Shown piece after piece: positions 15,407 to 53,912 of a stretch of DNA of 64,000 bases. This stretch comes from Octopus vulgaris (lineage: Eukaryota). The stretch spans positions 58,280,001 through 58,344,000 of the forward strand of contig OX597820.1 of NCBI GenBank assembly GCA_951406725.2, given 5' to 3'. The notes beneath the pieces were generated by a model that was given only the letters and a program-made list of their open reading frames with translations, was not told the origin of the DNA and ran no database searches. Position 1 is the stretch's first letter. Each line of letters opens with the position of its first letter. The translations under genes and the position numbers were made by a program.

Positions 15407-15486
<80 letters not shown>

Positions 15487-15491
15487 CATAC

Positions 15492-18070
15492 ATATATAAG
15501 AGTTTATAAGTATTTATACACAGAGAGGTGACCCTTGTCAGGACGCCTTACATGCTAGAAATGGCAGCCAAACCCAATCCACGAAAAAAAGTAATTCCAA
15601 TGAGAATAAAAGCAAAAATTATTTATAGTCCTAACCAAACTCGAGTTTCTGTATTAATGAACAAATAAATTGATTTGTCATCCGTACTTCGTCAGTGGGA
15701 TCGCTAAGACAATGCTTAATTATGCAGCTAATACGTACCGAAATCACACGTGCTTGCTGCATACTTATAGATTATGTTTTCGAATCAACCGCGCAAGTGC
15801 AGTCACATAGTCAACGGTAGTTAATAAAATTATTTTCTACTCTAGGCACAAGGCCCGAAATTTGGGGGGAGGGGGGAGCAGTCGATTAGATCGACGCCAG
15901 TGCGTAACTGGTACTTAATTTATCGACCTCGAAAGGATGAAAGGCAAAGTCGACCTCGACGGAATTTGAACTCAGAACGCAAAGACAGACGAAATACCTA
16001 TTTCTTCATTACCCACAAGGGGCTAAACACAGAGGGGACAAACAAGGACAGACATAGGTATTAAGTCGATTACATCGACCCCAGTGCGTAACTGGGACTT
16101 AATTTATCGACCTCGAAAGGATGAAAGGCAAAGTCGACCTCGACGGAATTTGAACTCAGAACGTAAAGACAGACGAAATACCTATTTCTTTACTACCCAC
16201 AAGGGGCCAAACACAGAGAGGACAAACAAGGACAGACATAGGTATTAAGTCGATTACATCGACCCCAGTGCGTAACTGGTACTTAATTTATCGACCTCGA
16301 AAGGATGAAAGGCAAAGTTGACCTCGACGGAATTTGAACTCAGAACGTAAAGACAGACGAAATACCGCTAAGCATTTCGCCCGGCGTGCTAACGTTTCTG
16401 CCAGCTCGCCGCCTTAGTAAATAAAATTAAGACTGTACGAAAAAGCTTTGAAACCATGAAAATTTTACTGTGAAAATTATAAGGGTAGAATATTTAGAAA
16501 TATTTTCACACCGGTGGCTAGCATGCGTAATAAAACTCAATAGACAACATATTTTCATATATAAGAGTATATAAATATTTACACACAGAGAGTGGCCCCT
16601 TGACAGGACACCTTACATGCTAGAAAGGGCAGCTAAACACAAACCACGAAAAAAAGGCAATTCCAAAGAGAATGAAAAAAAAATATTTATAGTCCTAACC
16701 AAACTCGAGTTTCTGTATTAATGAACAAATAAACTAATTTGTCATCCGTACTTCGTCAGTGGGATCGCTAAGACAATGCATGATTATGCAGCTAATACGT
16801 ACCGAAATCACACCTGCTTGCTGCATACTTATAGATTATGTTTTCAAATCAACCGCGCAAGTGCAGTCACGTAGTCAGCAGTCAATAATAAAATTAAAAC
16901 TGCGTACCAAAGGGCTTTGAAATTGTGAAAATTTTATACGTGCTTGCTGCATACTTATAGATAATGTTTTCAAATCAACCGCGCAAGTGCAGTCACGTTG
17001 TCAGCAGTCAATAATAAAATTAAAACTGCGTACCAAAGGGCTTTGAAATTGTGAAAATTTTATACGTGCTTGCTGCATACTTATAGATAATGTTTTCAAA
17101 TCAACCGCGCAAGTGCAGTCACGTAGTCAGCAGTCAATAATAAAATTAAAACTGCGTACCAAAGGGCTTTGAAATTGTGAAAATTTTATACGTGCTTGCT
17201 GCATACTTATAGATAATGTTTTCAAATCAACCGCGCAAGTGCAGTCACGTAGTCAGCAGTCAATAATAAAATTAAAACTGCGTACCAAAGGGCTTTGAAA
17301 TTGTGAAAATTTTATACGTGCTTGCTGCATACTTATAGATAATGTTTTCAAATCAACCGCGCAAGTGCAGTCACGTAGTCAGCAGTCAATAATAAAATTA
17401 AAACTGCGTACCAAAGGGCTTTGAAATTGTGAAAATTTTATACGTGCTTGCTGCATACTTATAGATAATGTTTTCAAATCAACCGCGCAAGTGCAGTCAC
17501 GTAGTCAGCAGTCAATAATAAAATTAAAACTGCGTACCAAAGGGCTTTGAAATTGTGAAAATTTTATACGTGCTTGCTGCATACTTATAGATAACGTTCT
17601 CAGATCAACCACACAAGCGCAATCACATAGCCAGCAGTTTTAATTTTATTATTCACTGCTGATTACGTGACTGAACTTGTGCGGTTAATTTGAAAACATA
17701 ATCTATAAGTATGCAGCAAGCACGTGTGATTTCGGTACGAATTAGCTGCATAATTATGCATTGTCTTAGCGATCCCACTGACGAAGTATGGATGACAAAT
17801 TAATTTATTTGTTCATTAATACAGAAACTCGAGTTTGGGGTTAACTATAAATAATTTTTTTTTTCATTCTCTTTGGCATTACTCTTTTTCAAGGTTTGTG
17901 TTTGGCTGCCCTTTCTAGCATGTAAGGTGTCCTGTCAAGGGTCACCTTTATGTGTATAAATATTTATACACTCTTATATATGAAAATACGTTGTCTATTG
18001 AGGTTTATTACGCGTGCTAGACACCGGTATGAATTTTTTCATAAATTTTCTACCATTATAATTGTACACA
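15492..18070. repeat. complex foldback repeat: about 480-bp unit in direct copies, 126-bp tandem array, and an inverted copy
   Basis: Direct copies start near 15492 and 16559; 126-bp units at 16815, 16941, 17067, 17193, 17319, 17445 and partial 17571; 17637-18070 is the reverse complement of about 16469-16900. Confidence 0.9.
15833..16413 (-). mobile_element. trimeric SINE family A with 15-bp TSD
   Basis: Body repeated three times at 184-bp period (gaaaggatgaaagg at 15931, 16115, 16299); flanks tagttaataaaatta (15818-15832) and tagtaaataaaatta (16415-16429). Confidence 0.9.
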
Positions 18071-18474
18071 TACATAGACATACACATCTATGTATATGTA
18101 TATAACTGTACATATATATATATATACGCACACATACATACAGCCATGTATATTATATTTTTGTATGTGTATACATATATCCAACACACAGACACACACA
18201 CAACACACACAACTTTCATGATGTGTTTATGTGTGCATAGGAACTTAAGAATAAATATATTTTTTACTTGTTTCAGTAATCGAACAGTAGCCTTGCTGAA
18301 GCACCGCTTTGAAGGGTTTAGTTGAACAAATTGACCCCAGTACTAAGTTACAGAAACGTAAACAAACCAACACTGGATCTTCAGCGGTGGTATATATATA
18401 TACGACGAGCTTCTTTCAGTTTCCGTTTACTAAATCCACTCACAAAGCTTTGGCTGACTGGAGGCTACAGCAAC

Positions 18475-24745: not shown

Positions 24746-24944
24746 CGAAAGATTGTTTTATGAGTCCCTAGCAGAACCGCTAATTTAAATGAACATAAAA
24801 CCAATACCGGTTATCACACGGGAGAGGGTGGGACACATATACTCATGTATATATTTATTTGACATGTAGAATTGTTAATCCAGACACGTTTTTTATTTCT
24901 CTCTCTCTCCGTTTATTATTTTTTCCTCCATTTTCTTTCCTCAT

Positions 24945-24982
24945 TTTTTCTGTCGAAGAGCGGAGGTTCGAAACGTCAAAGA
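24945..24982 (+). ncRNA. minimal HHR motif with one core substitution
   Basis: tttt CTGTCGA A GAGC ggag GTTC GAAA CG TC|aaag; homologous to 31980 and 34324. Confidence 0.55.
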
Positions 24983-25779
24983 CTTTTCCACTTCACCTGA
25001 GCGTCAAACTAATACACCTTGTTTGATATTCCTTCGCCTGTCTCTGCCTTTTTTTTTTGTACATTTGAGCCATATAGAAATAAGTTCATCATCATCCGAA
25101 AAGTGCTTCCTTTTCAAAAAAGACTTCATGGTTGGAAAGAGGTGGAAGTCAGATGGTGCGTATGCATAAATGTAACATTATATGTATGTATGTCTGTGAG
25201 TCAGTATGTGTGCCTCTATTTTACAAACAGAACTTAGTAAGTATCGTGAGTAGATAAGAAATTATCTAATTTGGCCAGTCAAACCCCAAACTGTTAGAAA
25301 TCTCAAATCTCATCAAGCACGTTTCATCTCAGTTCACACTTTATTATCAGTCTAGCGTTTGGGTGAGGTACGCTAGATCTACGTCGTTCGACGATAAGAA
25401 TTTAGTTGTTTCCTCAATAGAATTGCCTGCCCCTGAATTAAAGAGTAATTGGTTGATCATTCCGCAGATATGTGTGTCCTTAATGTAATTAAGTCATGCA
25501 CAATCAGACAGACACACTACAGGACAAGACTGTACAGTTTGAACTACAAGTACAATCCACGGACAGGCTTATATACAGTTTCTGTCAATAAGATTTAACA
25601 CTCAATGTATGGGTCGACACGAGGCTACAGAAAATGACATTTGCCCAAGATGTCACGCAGAGGGATGAAACCCACAATCGCATGATTGCGAAGAAAACTT
25701 CTTAAACATTTTGTCATACTGTGAGGTATATATAACAACAAACAAGATGGTAAACAGAATATGGTTTTACGTCTGGCTA

Positions 25780-29856: not shown

Positions 29857-31828
29857 TCACCTTGATCACCTTGACCGACCAGTCCGTCAGGCGTCCATTT
29901 GACACCGCTGGTCACAGCACGCTGTCCACTCCTCTCTGGATCGCGCCTTTCTCATCCACGTGATCCCAATCGTCCTCCTGAAATCGTAACTCCACCGTCG
30001 TGGAGGTCTTCCGGGTGGTCTTTTCCGCTCACGCGGGTACCACTCGAAAACTGGGTGCGTCCACCGATTATCGGTGAGCCGGGCGACGTGTCCAGCCCAT
30101 CTATACTTGCTGCGTGTATACTCTGCGATGACATCTCTCACGCCGGACTTCTTTCTGATGATCTTGCTACTTATGTGCTCTCTCAACGAGATACCAAGCA
30201 TTGAACTTTCCATGGCTCTTTGAGCCGTTACCAGTCTTTGCTCTTCTCTCTTTGTGGTAGCCCATGTTTCACTACCATATAACATTGCAGGCAGAACTGC
30301 ACTGTTAATGAGGTTGGCGCGGGTGGTCCTGTCCAACCTTCCATTGAGCACATCCCTTATGCCATTGAACGTCTTCCATCCGGCCCTTACTCTCCGTGAG
30401 ATCTCCTTTTTGATATCCCGGCACATATTTACTTCCTGTCCCAAGTAGACATATTCCCTCACCTCCTCTATTTCATCACAGCCGATCACCATTCTACCTG
30501 TTGGTACATTGTCTGACCGCATGAACTTTGTTTTCATGCGGTTCATCTTGAGACCTACTGCAGAACTTTTGATGTCGAGCTCCGTCAGCATAGTCTGAAG
30601 CTGATCCATGTTTTCAGCGATGAGTACGATGTCGTCAGCGAAACGGAGGTGAGTGAGGAGCTCGCCATTGATGTTGACACCACCTTACCGGTCGATGCCT
30701 TTGATGATCTGTTCGAGACATGCAGTGAAAAGTTTTGGGGAGATTGTATCTCCTTGCTTCACTCCCTTCTCGACCGGCACTCGTATGGGTGATGACAGTA
30801 GAGTTATGTCGGTGGTGCATCCGGAATTTGCCTCTCTGAGCAGCTGCGCATATTGCGCTTCGATTCCTTGCCACTGCAGCGAGTTTAGCACTGCGTTGGT
30901 TTCGATGCTATCGAAGGCCTTCTCATAATCTATAAACGCAACGCAAAGAGGCAGCTTGTACTCATTTGCTCGCTCAAGCAGTTGCGTTAGAGTAAATAGA
31001 TGGTCCATTGTGCTGTAGTTCTTCCGGAAGCCTGCTTGTTCCTTCGGTTGTTGTTCGTCGAGACGACGTGACAACCTGTTCAGAATTATCTTCGTGAACA
31101 GCTTGTACACGTGAGACAGCAGGCATATGGGTCGGTAGTTCTTTAGATCTTCTCTGTCGCCCTTCTTATACAGCAGGATGGTATTTGACTCTTTCTACTG
31201 CGAAGGAATTCTTCCCTCGTCTAGATAGTGCGTAAATCGCTCAGCGAGGATTTTCCAGAGCTGCTCTCTGCCTGACTTTAGCATCTCCGATGTTATACCG
31301 TCTTTCCCTGGAGCCTTTCCGTTTTTCATCGAGCCGATGACTCTTTCAACCTCACTGACAAGGATAGGTGGCACGTTTTCTTCCTGTTGGAGTGGTGGTA
31401 ACGGCTGGACATTTCTGGTAGACTTAAAGAGCTTGGTGTAGAAGTCTTCACAAACTTTTTCCATCTCGCTCTTCTCGTTGACCGGTATTCCATCTGTATT
31501 TTTCAGGGCCGTCACCTCCGATCTATATAGTACCATGTCCCTCTTGCATTTCTTGAGGCTCTTCTTTTCCTCTGTGGCCTTCAAGAGCTTCTCCATCCGG
31601 TATGCCTCAAAGTCTTTCTTTAGTTGCTGACGAATCACTCTGCTGAGAATGGAATATTCAAGGTGATCTTCAATAGTCCTCTTCATATTTTTCCTCTTCT
31701 CGAGTAACTTAGTAGTTTCTTCCGAGATTCTTCCCTTCTTTTCTCTTGGGCATACTCCCTTAGCCTTCCTTAAACACTCCTTCAGTTTCCCTATCAGTGA
31801 GTTGTAGTCATCGTCTATGTCGTCTCCT
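29857..31828 (-). mobile_element. young 5'-truncated RTE-clade LINE
   Basis: ORFs 31195-31686, 30685-31110 and 29887-30609 share one frame split by only two stops; KAPGKDGI, NYRPICLL, QAGFR, DYEKAFDS, GVKQGD, LRFADD, YVYLG, YGSETW, WAGHVAR, GRPPRRW; tail ggtgatcaaggtgat into (TA)n. Confidence 0.95.
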
Positions 31829-31859
31829 ATATATGCATGTGTGTAACATATGTTATGTA

Positions 31860-31913
<54 letters not shown>

Positions 31914-31915
<2 letters not shown>

Positions 31916-32111
31916 CAGTATGTGACCGCGTGAGTATTGTTGGCGATTTTCTTTCTCCGTCTTCCCTTTCTTTTTCTATGTTTCTGACGAAGACTCCGCT
32001 CGTAACGTTAAATCATCCTTCTTTCTTTCCTTGCCTGAGCGTCCAATAACACTATACTTGTTCCACATCCTCGCGTTGTTGTATTTTCTCTTTGTTCATG
32101 TTTGGATTAAC
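31914..32111 (+). mobile_element. about 200-bp HHR-bearing cassette (family E) flanked by (TA)n
   Basis: gttt CTGACGA agac tcc gctc GTAA CG TT|aaat at 31980-32013; homologous to 34221-34424. Confidence 0.75.
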
Positions 32112-32112
32112 T

Positions 32113-32160
<48 letters not shown>

Positions 32161-32164
<4 letters not shown>

Positions 32165-32710
32165 TTGGCATCAAATGGCAGAATCATGTGCTAACAAAGA
32201 TGTCCTCAAGCAAGCAGGAATACCAAGCATGTTTGCACTCCTCACATAAATACGTATGATATGGCTTGGACATGTTAGCCGTATGGAAGATGGCAGAACA
32301 TACTCTACGAAGAGCTTGCTAGGGGCACTAGGTCTGTGGAAGACCGTTCTTACGATACAGGGATGTTTGAAAAAGGGACATGAAGGCCTGTGACGTCAAT
32401 ATTAGCAACTGCGAAGCAGTTGCCAGCAACCGTGAAGATTGGCGATGTACCGTAAAAGAGGGAACACAAAGGAGTGAGAGAGAGAGAGAGTAGAAATGGA
32501 AAGACAAGAAAAGACGTTAACAAGAAACTATGACATTGCAACCAGCCAGGCAAAGTCTTCGCTACATTTGCGGCACCTGTCAGTGTTTGTCCAGGATAGA
32601 ACTACACAGCCACAGCAGGAGATGTATTAGGACATGAAATGTAAAAGCCGGACTAGATTATTTTATGCGCAACCCCATTGTCTCCCGAGACAAAAAGGAT
32701 GCCAACAATA
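32161..32710 (+). mobile_element. RTE/BovB-like LINE 3' fragment
   Basis: ILGIKWQ, NKDVLKQAGIPSM, WLGHVSRMEDGR and C-terminal YICGTCQ..SRIELHSHSRRC zinc-finger-like motif; frameshifted. Confidence 0.85.
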
Positions 32711-32715
32711 CATAC

Positions 32716-32751
<36 letters not shown>

Positions 32752-32757
32752 GGGGGG

Positions 32758-33100
32758 AGGTGCAGGAGTCGCTATGTGGTAAGTAGCTTGCTTACCAACC
32801 GCATGGTCCCGGGTACAGTTCCACTGCGTGGCACCTTGGGCAAGTGTCTTTTACTGAAGCCTCGGGCCGATCAAATCCTTGTGAGTGGATTTGGTAGACG
32901 CGTTTGTTCCCCACCATCACTTGACAACCGAAGGTGGTGTGTTTACGTCCCCGTAACATAGCGGTTCGTCAAAAGATCGATAGAATAAGTACTGGGCTTA
33001 CAAAGAATAATAAGTCCTAGGGTCGATTTGTTCGACTAAAGGCGGTGCTCCAGCATGGCCGCAGTCAAATAACTGAAACAAATAAAAGAATAAAAGAAAA

Positions 33101-33146
<46 letters not shown>

Positions 33147-33292
33147 GCACACAACAGGCTTCCAGTTTACCAAACTCACTCTCAAGGCTTTGATCTGCCC
33201 GAGGCTATAGTAGATGATATTTCCCCAAGGTGCCACGCAACGAGGCTGAACCTGGAACCACGTGGTTTGGAAGCAAGCTTCTTACCACACAC
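32758..33292. mobile_element. SINE family B copies (plus 32758-33095; minus 5' half 33155-33292)
   Basis: ccactgcgtggcaccttgggcaagtgtc and aaaggcggtgctccagcatggccgcagtc. Confidence 0.85.
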
Positions 33293-33329
33293 AATATATA
33301 TATATACATACATGTATATATATATACAC

Positions 33330-33362
<33 letters not shown>

Positions 33363-33414
33363 AAGTTAGGTTTTATATATATATATACATACACACACAC
33401 ATATACATATACAG

Positions 33415-33470
<56 letters not shown>

Positions 33471-33849
33471 ATGCATGTATGTATGCATGTATGTATGCAT
33501 GTATGTATGCATGTATGTATATACGCCGAATGCATGCTATTGGGAATAATTGGGTGTTGCCTGGAGGAATATCTGGGTTAGCCTACATCGTACCACCTAC
33601 TTACTTCTGTTTGTTTACTGGTTTATATATTGTTTATTTTTTTACAGTTTATTATGAGGCGGGAGTTGCATATCTTGCATTCTGTAATGGCATGGTCAGA
33701 GTTTCAATAAACATTGGAAATCCAAGAAATCTGCAACTGAAATGATGGCGAGAAAATAAACAGTAATCGACAACTTTATATTTTTTATCACTTTTCCACT
33801 TCGATTTCATTATAGTTATATACGTACGCGTGTTGTGTGCGTGTATACA

Positions 33850-33853
33850 TACA

Positions 33854-33908
<55 letters not shown>

Positions 33909-33930
33909 TGCGTTCTTGTCCTATTTTGTA

Positions 33931-33974
<44 letters not shown>

Positions 33975-33982
33975 GATAGATG

Positions 33983-34045
<63 letters not shown>

Positions 34046-34152
34046 CGATAGATAGATCGATAGATAGATAGATAGATAGATATGTATATATATATATAAA
34101 TAGATACACACATACATGCATACATATTTATATATATACATACATAGATACA

Positions 34153-34224
<72 letters not shown>

Positions 34225-34421
34225 TAATCCAAACAAGAAACCACAAAAAAAAAACACAACAACGCGAGGACGTGGAACAAATATAGTATTATTGGACGGT
34301 CAGGAAAGAAGGAAAGAAGGAGGGTTTAACGTTTCGAGCGGAGCTCTTCGTCGGAAACATAGGAGAAGGAAAGATCCAGAGAAGGCAAGACAGAGGAAAA
34401 AAATCGCCAACGGTATTCACG

Positions 34422-34506
<85 letters not shown>

Positions 34507-52663: not shown

Positions 52664-53799
52664 CACAAGGTTGGACAAAATAATGGAAACACTTCAAAAA
52701 TTTAAAACAAATTTTAATATAGGGTAGGACCGCCTTTGGCAGTAATTACAGCTTGAATTCTACGAGGTATGGACTCGTACAAAGTTTGTTTCCAAAGGAA
52801 TTTTTGTCCATTCTTCAGCTAAAACATTCTCTAGTTCTTGTAGTGATTATGGTGGAGAATATTGACTCCTTGTTTTTCTAAAATATTCAATAATATTGAG
52901 ATCTGTGGACTGTGGTTGCCAGATAAGATGTTCAACTTCACTAAAATGTTCCTTGTGCCATTCAGTAACTACTTCAGTTGTGTGAATTGGTGCATTATCA
53001 TCCTGAAAGATTGCGTTTCAATCCAGAATCAGTTCTGCAAACATAGGATGAATTTGATCAGATAAAATGCTTAAATAGTCTTGACTATTAATTCTGCCAT
53101 GAAGGGAAACAATTGGGCCGGAGGATTTCCAAGATATAGCCACCCCAGATCATCACAGACCCTCCTCCGTGTTTAACAGTTGGAAGAAGGCAGTCTGGGT
53201 CAACTGCTTCTATTGTCTGTATCCACACGTATACTCGGTTGGTGGTCGGAAATACGGTAAAGGATGACTCGTCCGAGAAAATAACATTCTTCCACTGCTC
53301 TAGGGACCAATTCTGTAGGTTTTTACTCCACTCTAAACGCTTTGCAACATTTGTTTTTGAAAGTAGTGCTTTTCTGATTGCAGCCCTCCCGTGAAATCCG
53401 GTTTTGTGCAGCTCCCGGCGAAAAGTTTTTGTGGAAACTGGGTTCTCGAGGTGGTCATTAAGCTCTGCAGTAGTTTTGGGGATTCTGATCCTTTCTAACA
53501 ATTAGTGTATGAGTCCGACGGTCCCTATCTGAAAGTTTGGGCTTTCTTCCGGAGTTTTGTTTCGACGAGGTTTTTTCCTCTTTCTCAAAGGCTGTCATTA
53601 CTTTAGAAACAGCACTTCTTGATACACCAAACATTTTAGCTGTTTTCGTTACGGTAGCGCCTGCCATATGAACACCAACAATTTTACCTCTTTGAAAGTC
53701 CGTTAGATCTGTCATTTTAATGAATTTTAAATATCTTTCTCTGATGATATCAGAAAAGAAACAGCTATCATAGCAAAACATATTAAGCAACACTAATAA

Positions 53800-53830
<31 letters not shown>

Positions 53831-53912
53831 AAACAAGCTTTTGAAGGTTTTATAGATATTTCAAAATTATGATGCTATGATGCTAGGTGTTGCCATTATT
53901 TTGTCCAACCCT

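What the first reader, a model, noticed from the sequence alone, without database searches (positions are those of the whole stretch)
31914..34424. Family E: about 200-bp minimal-HHR cassettes whose copies each carry a different core mutation
Seen: copies at 31914-32111 (+), 34221-34424 (-) and a diverged one near 24860-25050. Core defects differ (GUAA for GAAA; CCGACGA; CUGUCGA), so the consensus CUGACGA-A-GAGC-loop-GCUC-GAAACGU(U/C) is intact. Helix III is only ACGU, so it could form only in a dimer. Two copies sit in pure (TA)n. No tRNA head, TIR or ORF. Inference: a tiny ribozyme-bearing non-autonomous retroposon that targets microsatellites.
Basis: partly seen in the sequence, partly recalled or inferred. 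Interest (0 to 1): 0.75.

Follow-up and report, generated by a model that had tools for sequence, protein, structure and literature searches.

The report
Short Penelope-derived repeat with hammerhead ribozyme
This is a short, abundant jumping-gene fragment of an animal genome that carries a minimal self-cutting RNA of a type already known from Penelope-like retrotransposons; its one unusual trait is that many copies share a core change expected to weaken cutting.

Summary
The repeat is real: two ~200-bp copies (31914-32112 +, 34221-34425 -), each between (TA)n tracts, carry a minimal type I hammerhead of the kind described in Penelope-like elements (PLEs). Copy 3 (core 24950) is only a distant sister, without TA flanks. 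Laying public contigs on copy 2 gave 5,202, 17,874 and 6,013 contigs in three runs (three species labels). The same core spelling lies 71-677 bp downstream of PLE RT/GIY-YIG coding sequence in 18 of 85 metagenome loci. It is 72-76% of laid depth (about 47-61% after allowing for clipping bias), while copy-2-private changes read 99-100% 'other' and CpG decay 2-11%. The family also has GUU at the cleavage site. The predicted cut lies mid-element, and tandem joints were seen only in single contigs. Best reading: a non-autonomous PLE derivative with a defined 5' end, inserted at (TA)n by a PLE enzyme from uncut RNA. No autonomous partner was found. Minimal hammerheads, dimer cleavage, TA targeting and non-autonomous pLTR elements are all published: new member of a known kind.

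The parts
31914..32112 (+). Copy 1, apparently full-length unit (its 5' end matches the family 5' end seen in loose ends of laid contigs)
31980..32013 (+). Minimal type I hammerhead of copy 1: helix I 31980-83/32010-13, canonical CUGACGA 31984-90, inserted A, helix II with one G lost, A13U at 32003, CG palindrome, GUU; predicted cut after 32009
31873..31913 (.). (TA)n tract at the 5' end of copy 1
32117..32162 (.). (TA)n tract at the 3' end of copy 1
34221..34425 (-). Copy 2, about 11 nt shorter at the 5' end than copy 1
34324..34358 (-). Minimal hammerhead of copy 2: helix I GUUU/AAAC, CCGACGA (U4C at 34353, a major family allele), inserted A, 4-bp helix II with UCC loop, GAAA, CG palindrome, GUU; predicted cut after 34328
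34190..34220 (.). (TA)n tract at the 3' end of copy 2
34425..34502 (.). (TA)n tract at the 5' end of copy 2
24946..25061 (+). Copy 3: sister-family remnant; core 24950-24977 with A6U at 24953, GGAG loop, GUC; weak likeness to copies 1-2 only from the core downstream; 5' boundary not defined; no TA flanks

Best explanation
Family E is a ~215-bp non-autonomous derivative of the 3' end (pseudo-LTR) of an endonuclease-bearing Penelope-like element. Inferred cycle: a short RNA with a defined 5' end (possibly from the internal pLTR promoter) keeps the PLE 3' recognition end; a PLE reverse transcriptase/GIY-YIG protein supplied in trans nicks (TA)n and copies it by target-primed reverse transcription, giving dispersed monomers with a fixed 3' end against TA. 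The inherited minimal hammerhead could fold only as a dimer, and at least one highly amplified master carried U4C plus GUU. Inserted copies span the cut site, so the template was uncut or re-ligated: cleavage is probably weak and not what defines the unit. Shown: anatomy, high copy number, shared CCGA allele, TA flanks, PLE linkage of this core spelling in other animals. Inferred: partner enzyme, promoter, mechanism of insertion, ribozyme activity.
For: Hammerhead matches all four extra traits listed for PLE min-HHRs in PMC4209133: consensus families with covariation, inserted base between 9 and 10.1, G10.1-C11.1, palindromic 15.2-16.2. Same core spelling in 85 metagenome loci; 18 of 85 have PLE protein similarity, all 18 on the same strand, ending 71-677 bp upstream (4 of the 18 are the query loci, some loci are duplicates); RVT_1 E 5e-8 in L018, GIY-YIG E 0.0018 (below cut-off) in L044; CxnCxxC linker of Neptune/Nematis type; 18 of 85 show the inverted upstream partner typical of PLEs. 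Helix I, not in the search pattern, covaries: 39 of 48 Watson-Crick pairs against a shuffle mean of 23.5, 0 of 5000. Thousands of contigs in three runs; depth in the TA bin past the 3' end is 35-44% of the adjacent bin, against 0.6-2% at the 5' joint of copy 2; loose ends run about 11 nt past copy 2's 5' end, as in copy 1, then turn AT-rich and mixed (agreement 0.53-0.74). TA targeting and non-autonomous pLTR elements are described in PMC8557442.
Against: No autonomous PLE with this 3' end was found: no PLE coding remnant in the window (best tblastn E 0.51), no likeness to the 85 loci beyond the core, no whole genome held. Only the best-supported loose ends were shown (426 not shown), so a rare conserved upstream extension could be hidden. 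The one raw-read run (X21, same species label) gave depth 0-2 over the core; its six listed loose-end strings lack G, which suggests a base-converted library, but this is inference. No Rfam hammerhead model hit, even at E up to 10. Helix II and I have low probability (at most 0.18 and 0.06) in whole-monomer folding. No evidence of transcription.
Confidence: 0.6

Rival explanations
1. The copies are the 5'-truncated 3' ends or solo pseudo-LTRs of an autonomous PLE; there is no separate non-autonomous family.
For: This is the normal state of PLE hammerheads: 67 of 85 loci had no PLE coding similarity; PMC4209133 says most motifs are single and probably truncated PLEs. Laid depth falls steadily toward the 5' end and copy 2 is 11 nt shorter than copy 1.
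Against: Listed loose ends share a 5' terminus followed by AT-rich mixed sequence, not by one conserved upstream sequence, in three runs; copy 1 ends at that same point against TA. Part of the 5' depth fall is due to copy-2 differences near that end.
Confidence: 0.25
2. It is a non-LTR retrozyme in the strict sense: tandem masters are transcribed, cut by hammerhead dimers, circularised and reverse-transcribed; these copies are solo offspring.
For: Size and ORF-less state fit (PMC7229834); solo monomers can dominate some families (bioRxiv 2026.07.22.740005); two head-to-tail joints seen, one contig each in X4 and X11.
Against: Those joints are at single-locus depth; no abundant end-to-start joint listed; ends lie about 96-98 and 103-108 nt from the cut site and are shared, not permuted; the core is minimal with U4C and GUU, and PMC7229834 assigns retrozymes to canonical hammerheads. 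Short contigs cannot show tandems joined through long TA spacers.
Confidence: 0.1
3. A SINE-like repeat moved by a LINE such as RTE, with a vestigial or chance hammerhead and TA tracts grown after insertion.
For: Copy 1 lies between two LINE fragments (RVT_1 hits); TA tracts are common here (74 tracts of 10 bp or more) and flank other repeats.
Against: No tRNA head or Pol III boxes; core spelling is tied to PLE coding sequence elsewhere; TA lies on both sides of both copies.
Confidence: 0.05

Closest known systems
Minimal type I hammerheads in PLE pseudo-LTRs (Cervera and de la Pena 2014, PMC4209133; Lunse et al. 2017, seen only as cited in PMC6765202)
   Same: Inserted base between 9 and 10.1, G10.1-C11.1, short helix I, palindromic 15.2-16.2 that needs a dimer, dispersed single motifs in consensus families.
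   Different: Helix II is 4 bp; the U4C allele is shared by a large part of the family (the parts of PMC4209133 that I read name U3-A8 as the core variant); no flanking ORF shown in this host.
Neptune/Nematis-type EN+ PLEs (loci L018, L056, L044, L006; clade traits from PMC8557442)
   Same: Same core spelling, hammerhead near the 3' end, GUU in 10 of 85 loci, microsatellite bias reported for Neptune and Naiad.
   Different: No ORF; no sequence likeness beyond the core; inverted partner not seen for these copies.
Non-LTR retrozymes (PMC7229834; bioRxiv 10.64898/2026.07.22.740005)
   Same: Short, non-coding, type I hammerhead, proposed PLE-derived and PLE-mobilised; solo monomers are known.
   Different: Defined by tandem units with hammerheads and, where tested, circular RNAs; here tandems were seen only as single joints and RNA was not shown.
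Non-autonomous Chlamys elements such as MRC1 (PMC8557442)
   Same: Non-autonomous PLE derivatives sharing the 3' end, microsatellite-biased clade.
   Different: Green algae; mostly lack canonical hammerheads; often multicopy head-to-tail.
Natural U4C viroid hammerhead (as cited in PMC3088659)
   Same: Same core change; said to lower activity in vitro yet allow infectivity.
   Different: A viroid variant, not a genomic repeat allele.

Membership tests
Minimal type I hammerhead of PLE kind | CUGANGA and GAAA boxes with NUH site | tested here: inconclusive
   GAAA and G5-A9 show no other letter at 5% or more in laid contigs, but U4 is C in 72-76% of depth; each window copy deviates
Minimal type I hammerhead of PLE kind | Inserted base between 9 and 10.1; G10.1-C11.1; palindromic 15.2-16.2 | tested here: met
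Minimal type I hammerhead of PLE kind | Helix I and II pairing with covariation | tested here: met
   4-bp helix I and II in copies 2 and 3; helix I covaries across loci with this core (several of the 16 groups are variants of one family)
Minimal type I hammerhead of PLE kind | Self-cleavage as dimer, not monomer | not testable with these tools
   needs in vitro assay
Rfam hammerhead families | Covariance-model match | tested here: not met
   0 hits at gathering; no hammerhead among 74 hits at E up to 10; none of the window's perfect-core motifs hit either
Autonomous EN+ PLE | RT plus GIY-YIG ORF upstream of the pLTR | tested here: not met
   no PLE protein similarity in the window; flanks are TA
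Non-autonomous PLE derivative | 3' end shared with an autonomous PLE of the same host | not testable with these tools
   no genome held; no match of four motifs in the PLE supplement of PMC8557442
Non-autonomous PLE derivative | High copy, no ORF, fixed 3' end, microsatellite target | tested here: met
Non-LTR retrozyme | Tandem units each with a hammerhead | tested here: inconclusive
   none in window; two single-contig head-to-tail joints; short contigs cannot cross long TA spacers
Non-LTR retrozyme | Unit-length linear and circular RNA | not testable with these tools
   RNA status of run X11 is a guess; contigs show no strand or ends
tRNA-derived SINE | tRNA head with A and B boxes | tested here: not met
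MITE | Terminal inverted repeats | tested here: not met
   only the TA tracts are self-complementary

The most novel reading that the evidence does not exclude
A PLE-dependent, SINE-like element with its own fixed 5' end reached thousands of copies from a master whose hammerhead was doubly damped (U4C and GUU) and inserted uncut, beside a sister subfamily with the canonical core. The two subfamilies would then be a natural paired experiment on whether PLE hammerhead cleavage helps, hinders or is irrelevant to retrotransposition, and the motif may have been kept as a fold for the reverse transcriptase rather than as a nuclease.
Probability: 0.3. Interest if true: 0.6.

Novelty: new member of a known kind. 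Interest (0 to 1): 0.3.

Why it matters
The role of hammerheads in Penelope-like elements is still open (stated in PMC8557442 and PMC4209133). A small, very abundant family with a canonical-core and a U4C-core subfamily gives a cheap way to compare cleavage rate with amplification success. Otherwise it is a routine repeat-library entry.

Tried and rejected
Own genome: none held. Rfam: no hammerhead hit; other hits were microRNA models on simple repeats. CCGA-form core pattern in viral contigs: 0; copy-2 motif in prokaryote genomes: 0. Earlier findings: nothing in 3 look-ups. Raw-read run X21: uninformative over the core. Identity with the Octopus Naiads of PMC8557442: none of four element motifs found in its supplement (line breaks in the file could hide a motif). 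Lunse et al. 2017 not held. No passage on GUU in PMC1636495, so the slower cleavage of GUU is recalled only. In-window cis dimer of copies 1 and 2 rejected: they are on opposite strands. CpG decay as the source of CCGA rejected: decay runs from CCGA to CUGA, not the reverse. B-box-like string in copy 3 rejected as a by-product of the core (no A box). Protein homolog searches were not run because they give no DNA context.

Full report
Setting. The window is non-coding animal DNA rich in microsatellites, SINEs and LINE and transposase fragments. Its repeats look to me like those of octopus genomes; this is recalled and was not tested, the runs that hold the element are coded as organisms A-D, and octopus papers are used below only as conditional context. 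No whole genome is held.

Observation. Copies 1 (31914-32112, +) and 2 (34221-34425, -) are homologous over their whole length: 79.9% by blastn, score 232 against at most 47 in 500 shuffles. Both end at the same 3' point and lie between (TA)n tracts; a random segment of this size does so with frequency 2.6e-4. Copy 2 lacks about 11 nt of copy 1's 5' end. No tRNA gene, Pol III box, TIR or ORF over 30 aa was found. Each has a type I hammerhead skeleton: 4-bp helix I, CUGANGA box, one inserted A, 4-bp helix II, GAAA, CG, then GUU. Copy 3 (core 24950-24977; A6U, other loop, GUC) resembles the others only from the core downstream (0 of 500 shuffles) and not upstream (64 and 53 of 500) and has no TA flanks: a sister family.

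Abundance and alleles. With copy 2 as query, 21 of 24 listed runs, from 11 studies and four species labels plus one feces metagenome, hold its words (15 sampled words). I laid 4 of the 24 runs. Three contig runs gave 5,202 (X11), 17,874 (X4) and 6,013 (X17) laid contigs. Two copy-2-private changes (34299, 34386) read 99-100% 'other', and seven CpG positions 2-11%. At 34353 (U4), only 26.9, 27.8 and 24.0% of summed depth shows the canonical base. Mismatching contigs lose depth by end-clipping, and the query favours its own subfamily; doubling or tripling the 'other' depth still leaves CCGA at 57-61% or 47-51%. The tool warns that summed depth is no copy number; dividing the CCGA depth in X4 by a single-locus depth near 50 and by 31 for word overlap gives roughly 2,000 as my own crude floor. 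Neutral CpG decay turns CCGA into CUGA, not the reverse, so CCGA must have been in an amplified master (inference). No other core position, nor U17, shows another letter at 5% or more. So GAAA is the family state, but the claim that each defect is private and the consensus canonical does not hold for U4. Against: the only raw-read run (X21) barely covers the core; its loose ends lack G, which points to a base-converted library, unproven.

Ends and tandems. Depth in the TA bin beyond the 3' end is 35-44% of the adjacent bin; at copy 2's 5' joint it is 0.6-2%. Listed loose ends there continue for about 11 nt as in copy 1 and then become AT-rich and mixed (agreement 0.53-0.74; 426 further loose ends not shown). 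This suggests a unit of about 215 bp with a defined start. Head-to-tail joints appear in one contig each in X4 and X11, at single-locus depth. The predicted cut lies about 96-98 nt from the 5' end and 103-108 nt from the 3' end, so the inserted DNA spans it. Copies 1 and 2 are on opposite strands and cannot form a cis dimer.

Link to PLEs. The canonical spelling of this core was found at 85 metagenome loci (some are the same locus in different assemblies). 18 of 85 have tblastn similarity to five proteins taken from four of these loci; in all 18 the nearest match is on the hammerhead strand and ends 71-677 bp upstream. L018 has RVT_1 (E 5e-8) and L044 a sub-threshold GIY-YIG hit; the proteins carry a CxnCxxC linker that PMC8557442 gives for Neptune and Nematis. 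18 of 85 have an inverted partner just upstream, a PLE hallmark. Helix I, which the pattern did not constrain, covaries (39 of 48 pairs; shuffle mean 23.5; 0 of 5000; inflated because several groups are variants of one family). These loci share nothing with Family E beyond the core, and the window holds no PLE coding remnant, so the actual partner is not identified.

Mechanism. Shown: anatomy, abundance, allele structure, TA flanks. Inferred: a short pLTR-derived RNA, perhaps from an internal promoter as reported for Penelope (PMC2377424, abstract only), is copied in trans by a PLE RT/GIY-YIG protein at (TA)n. The hammerhead needs a dimer, and U4C lowers activity though it can suffice in a viroid (PMC3088659); that GUU is slower than GUC is recalled. 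Cleavage is thus probably weak and does not set the unit's ends. I give this 0.6, truncated autonomous PLE 0.25, strict retrozyme 0.1, LINE-driven SINE 0.05.

What is known. PMC4209133 (parts 1-2 of 4 read: abstract, results, discussion, start of methods) describes these minimal hammerheads, their dimer requirement, low activity and dispersal as single motifs. PMC6765202 (passages) reviews this and cites Lunse et al., which I could not read. PMC8557442 (passages and supplement searches) reports (TA)n targeting, non-autonomous pLTR elements, Octopus Naiads at (TA)n, and that hammerhead function in EN+ PLEs is unclear. PMC7229834 (passages) and bioRxiv 2026.07.22.740005 (parts 1-3 of 5 and a term search; supplements not seen) treat short hammerhead repeats as non-autonomous PLE derivatives with solo monomers; the latter names no mollusc. 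PMC13282606 (passages and a supplement search) gives 190 Penelope-like families, 6.83% of the O. vulgaris genome, with no mention of hammerheads; its repeat library was not visible and may already hold this family. PMC3088659: passages and section 8. PMC8967140 and PMC6962438: passages. Eight searches of the library listed no paper on this family or on a U4C allele in a PLE hammerhead; subscription journals, Repbase and Dfam were not searched.

Verdict. A real, abundant, ORF-less repeat with a PLE-type minimal hammerhead: a new member of a known kind. The part worth following is the amplified U4C/GUU core. Interest 0.3.

Noticed in passing
window 15410-18126: A second hammerhead family: three cores (15695 -, 16759 -, 17778 +; long helix II, 6-nt palindrome), with an inverted copy, a run of 126-bp head-to-tail partial units (16812-17638, 94-98% alike) and (TA)n at both outer ends: typical PLE tandem/inverted anatomy, no PLE coding match.
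   Followed up: partly
window 4261 (-): Perfect hammerhead core with 5-bp helix II and a 12-nt helix III hairpin that could fold as a monomer, UC at the cut.
   Followed up: no
window 56096 (-): Perfect core with 8-bp helix II, 6-nt palindromic helix III and 5-bp helix I.
   Followed up: no
window 41201 (-): Hammerhead-like motif with one mismatch in the GAAA box and a 12-nt palindrome, near a TA tract.
   Followed up: no
window 29887-31830 (-) and 32163-32640 (+): RTE-like LINE RT fragment (RVT_1 E 2e-21 and 2e-8, broken by stops) left of copy 1, and a second LINE-like fragment right of it (judged by eye), 5' ends facing the TA tracts.
   Followed up: partly
window 53088-53874 (-): Tc1/mariner-like transposase fragments (judged by eye).
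   Followed up: no
window 32757-33293, 15834-16416 and many others: Abundant SINE-like repeats, some internally duplicated and often next to TA tracts.
   Followed up: no
L008, L013, L015, L041, L057 and others: Very short inverted 5'-truncated partners directly upstream of the hammerhead (18 of 85 loci); many loci of this family share a 3' end about 60 nt after the cut with an optional ~45-nt tail (by eye).
   Followed up: partly
run X21 laid on 34210-34435: Run labelled WGS whose loose ends lack G and which barely covers the element; possibly a base-converted library.
   Followed up: no
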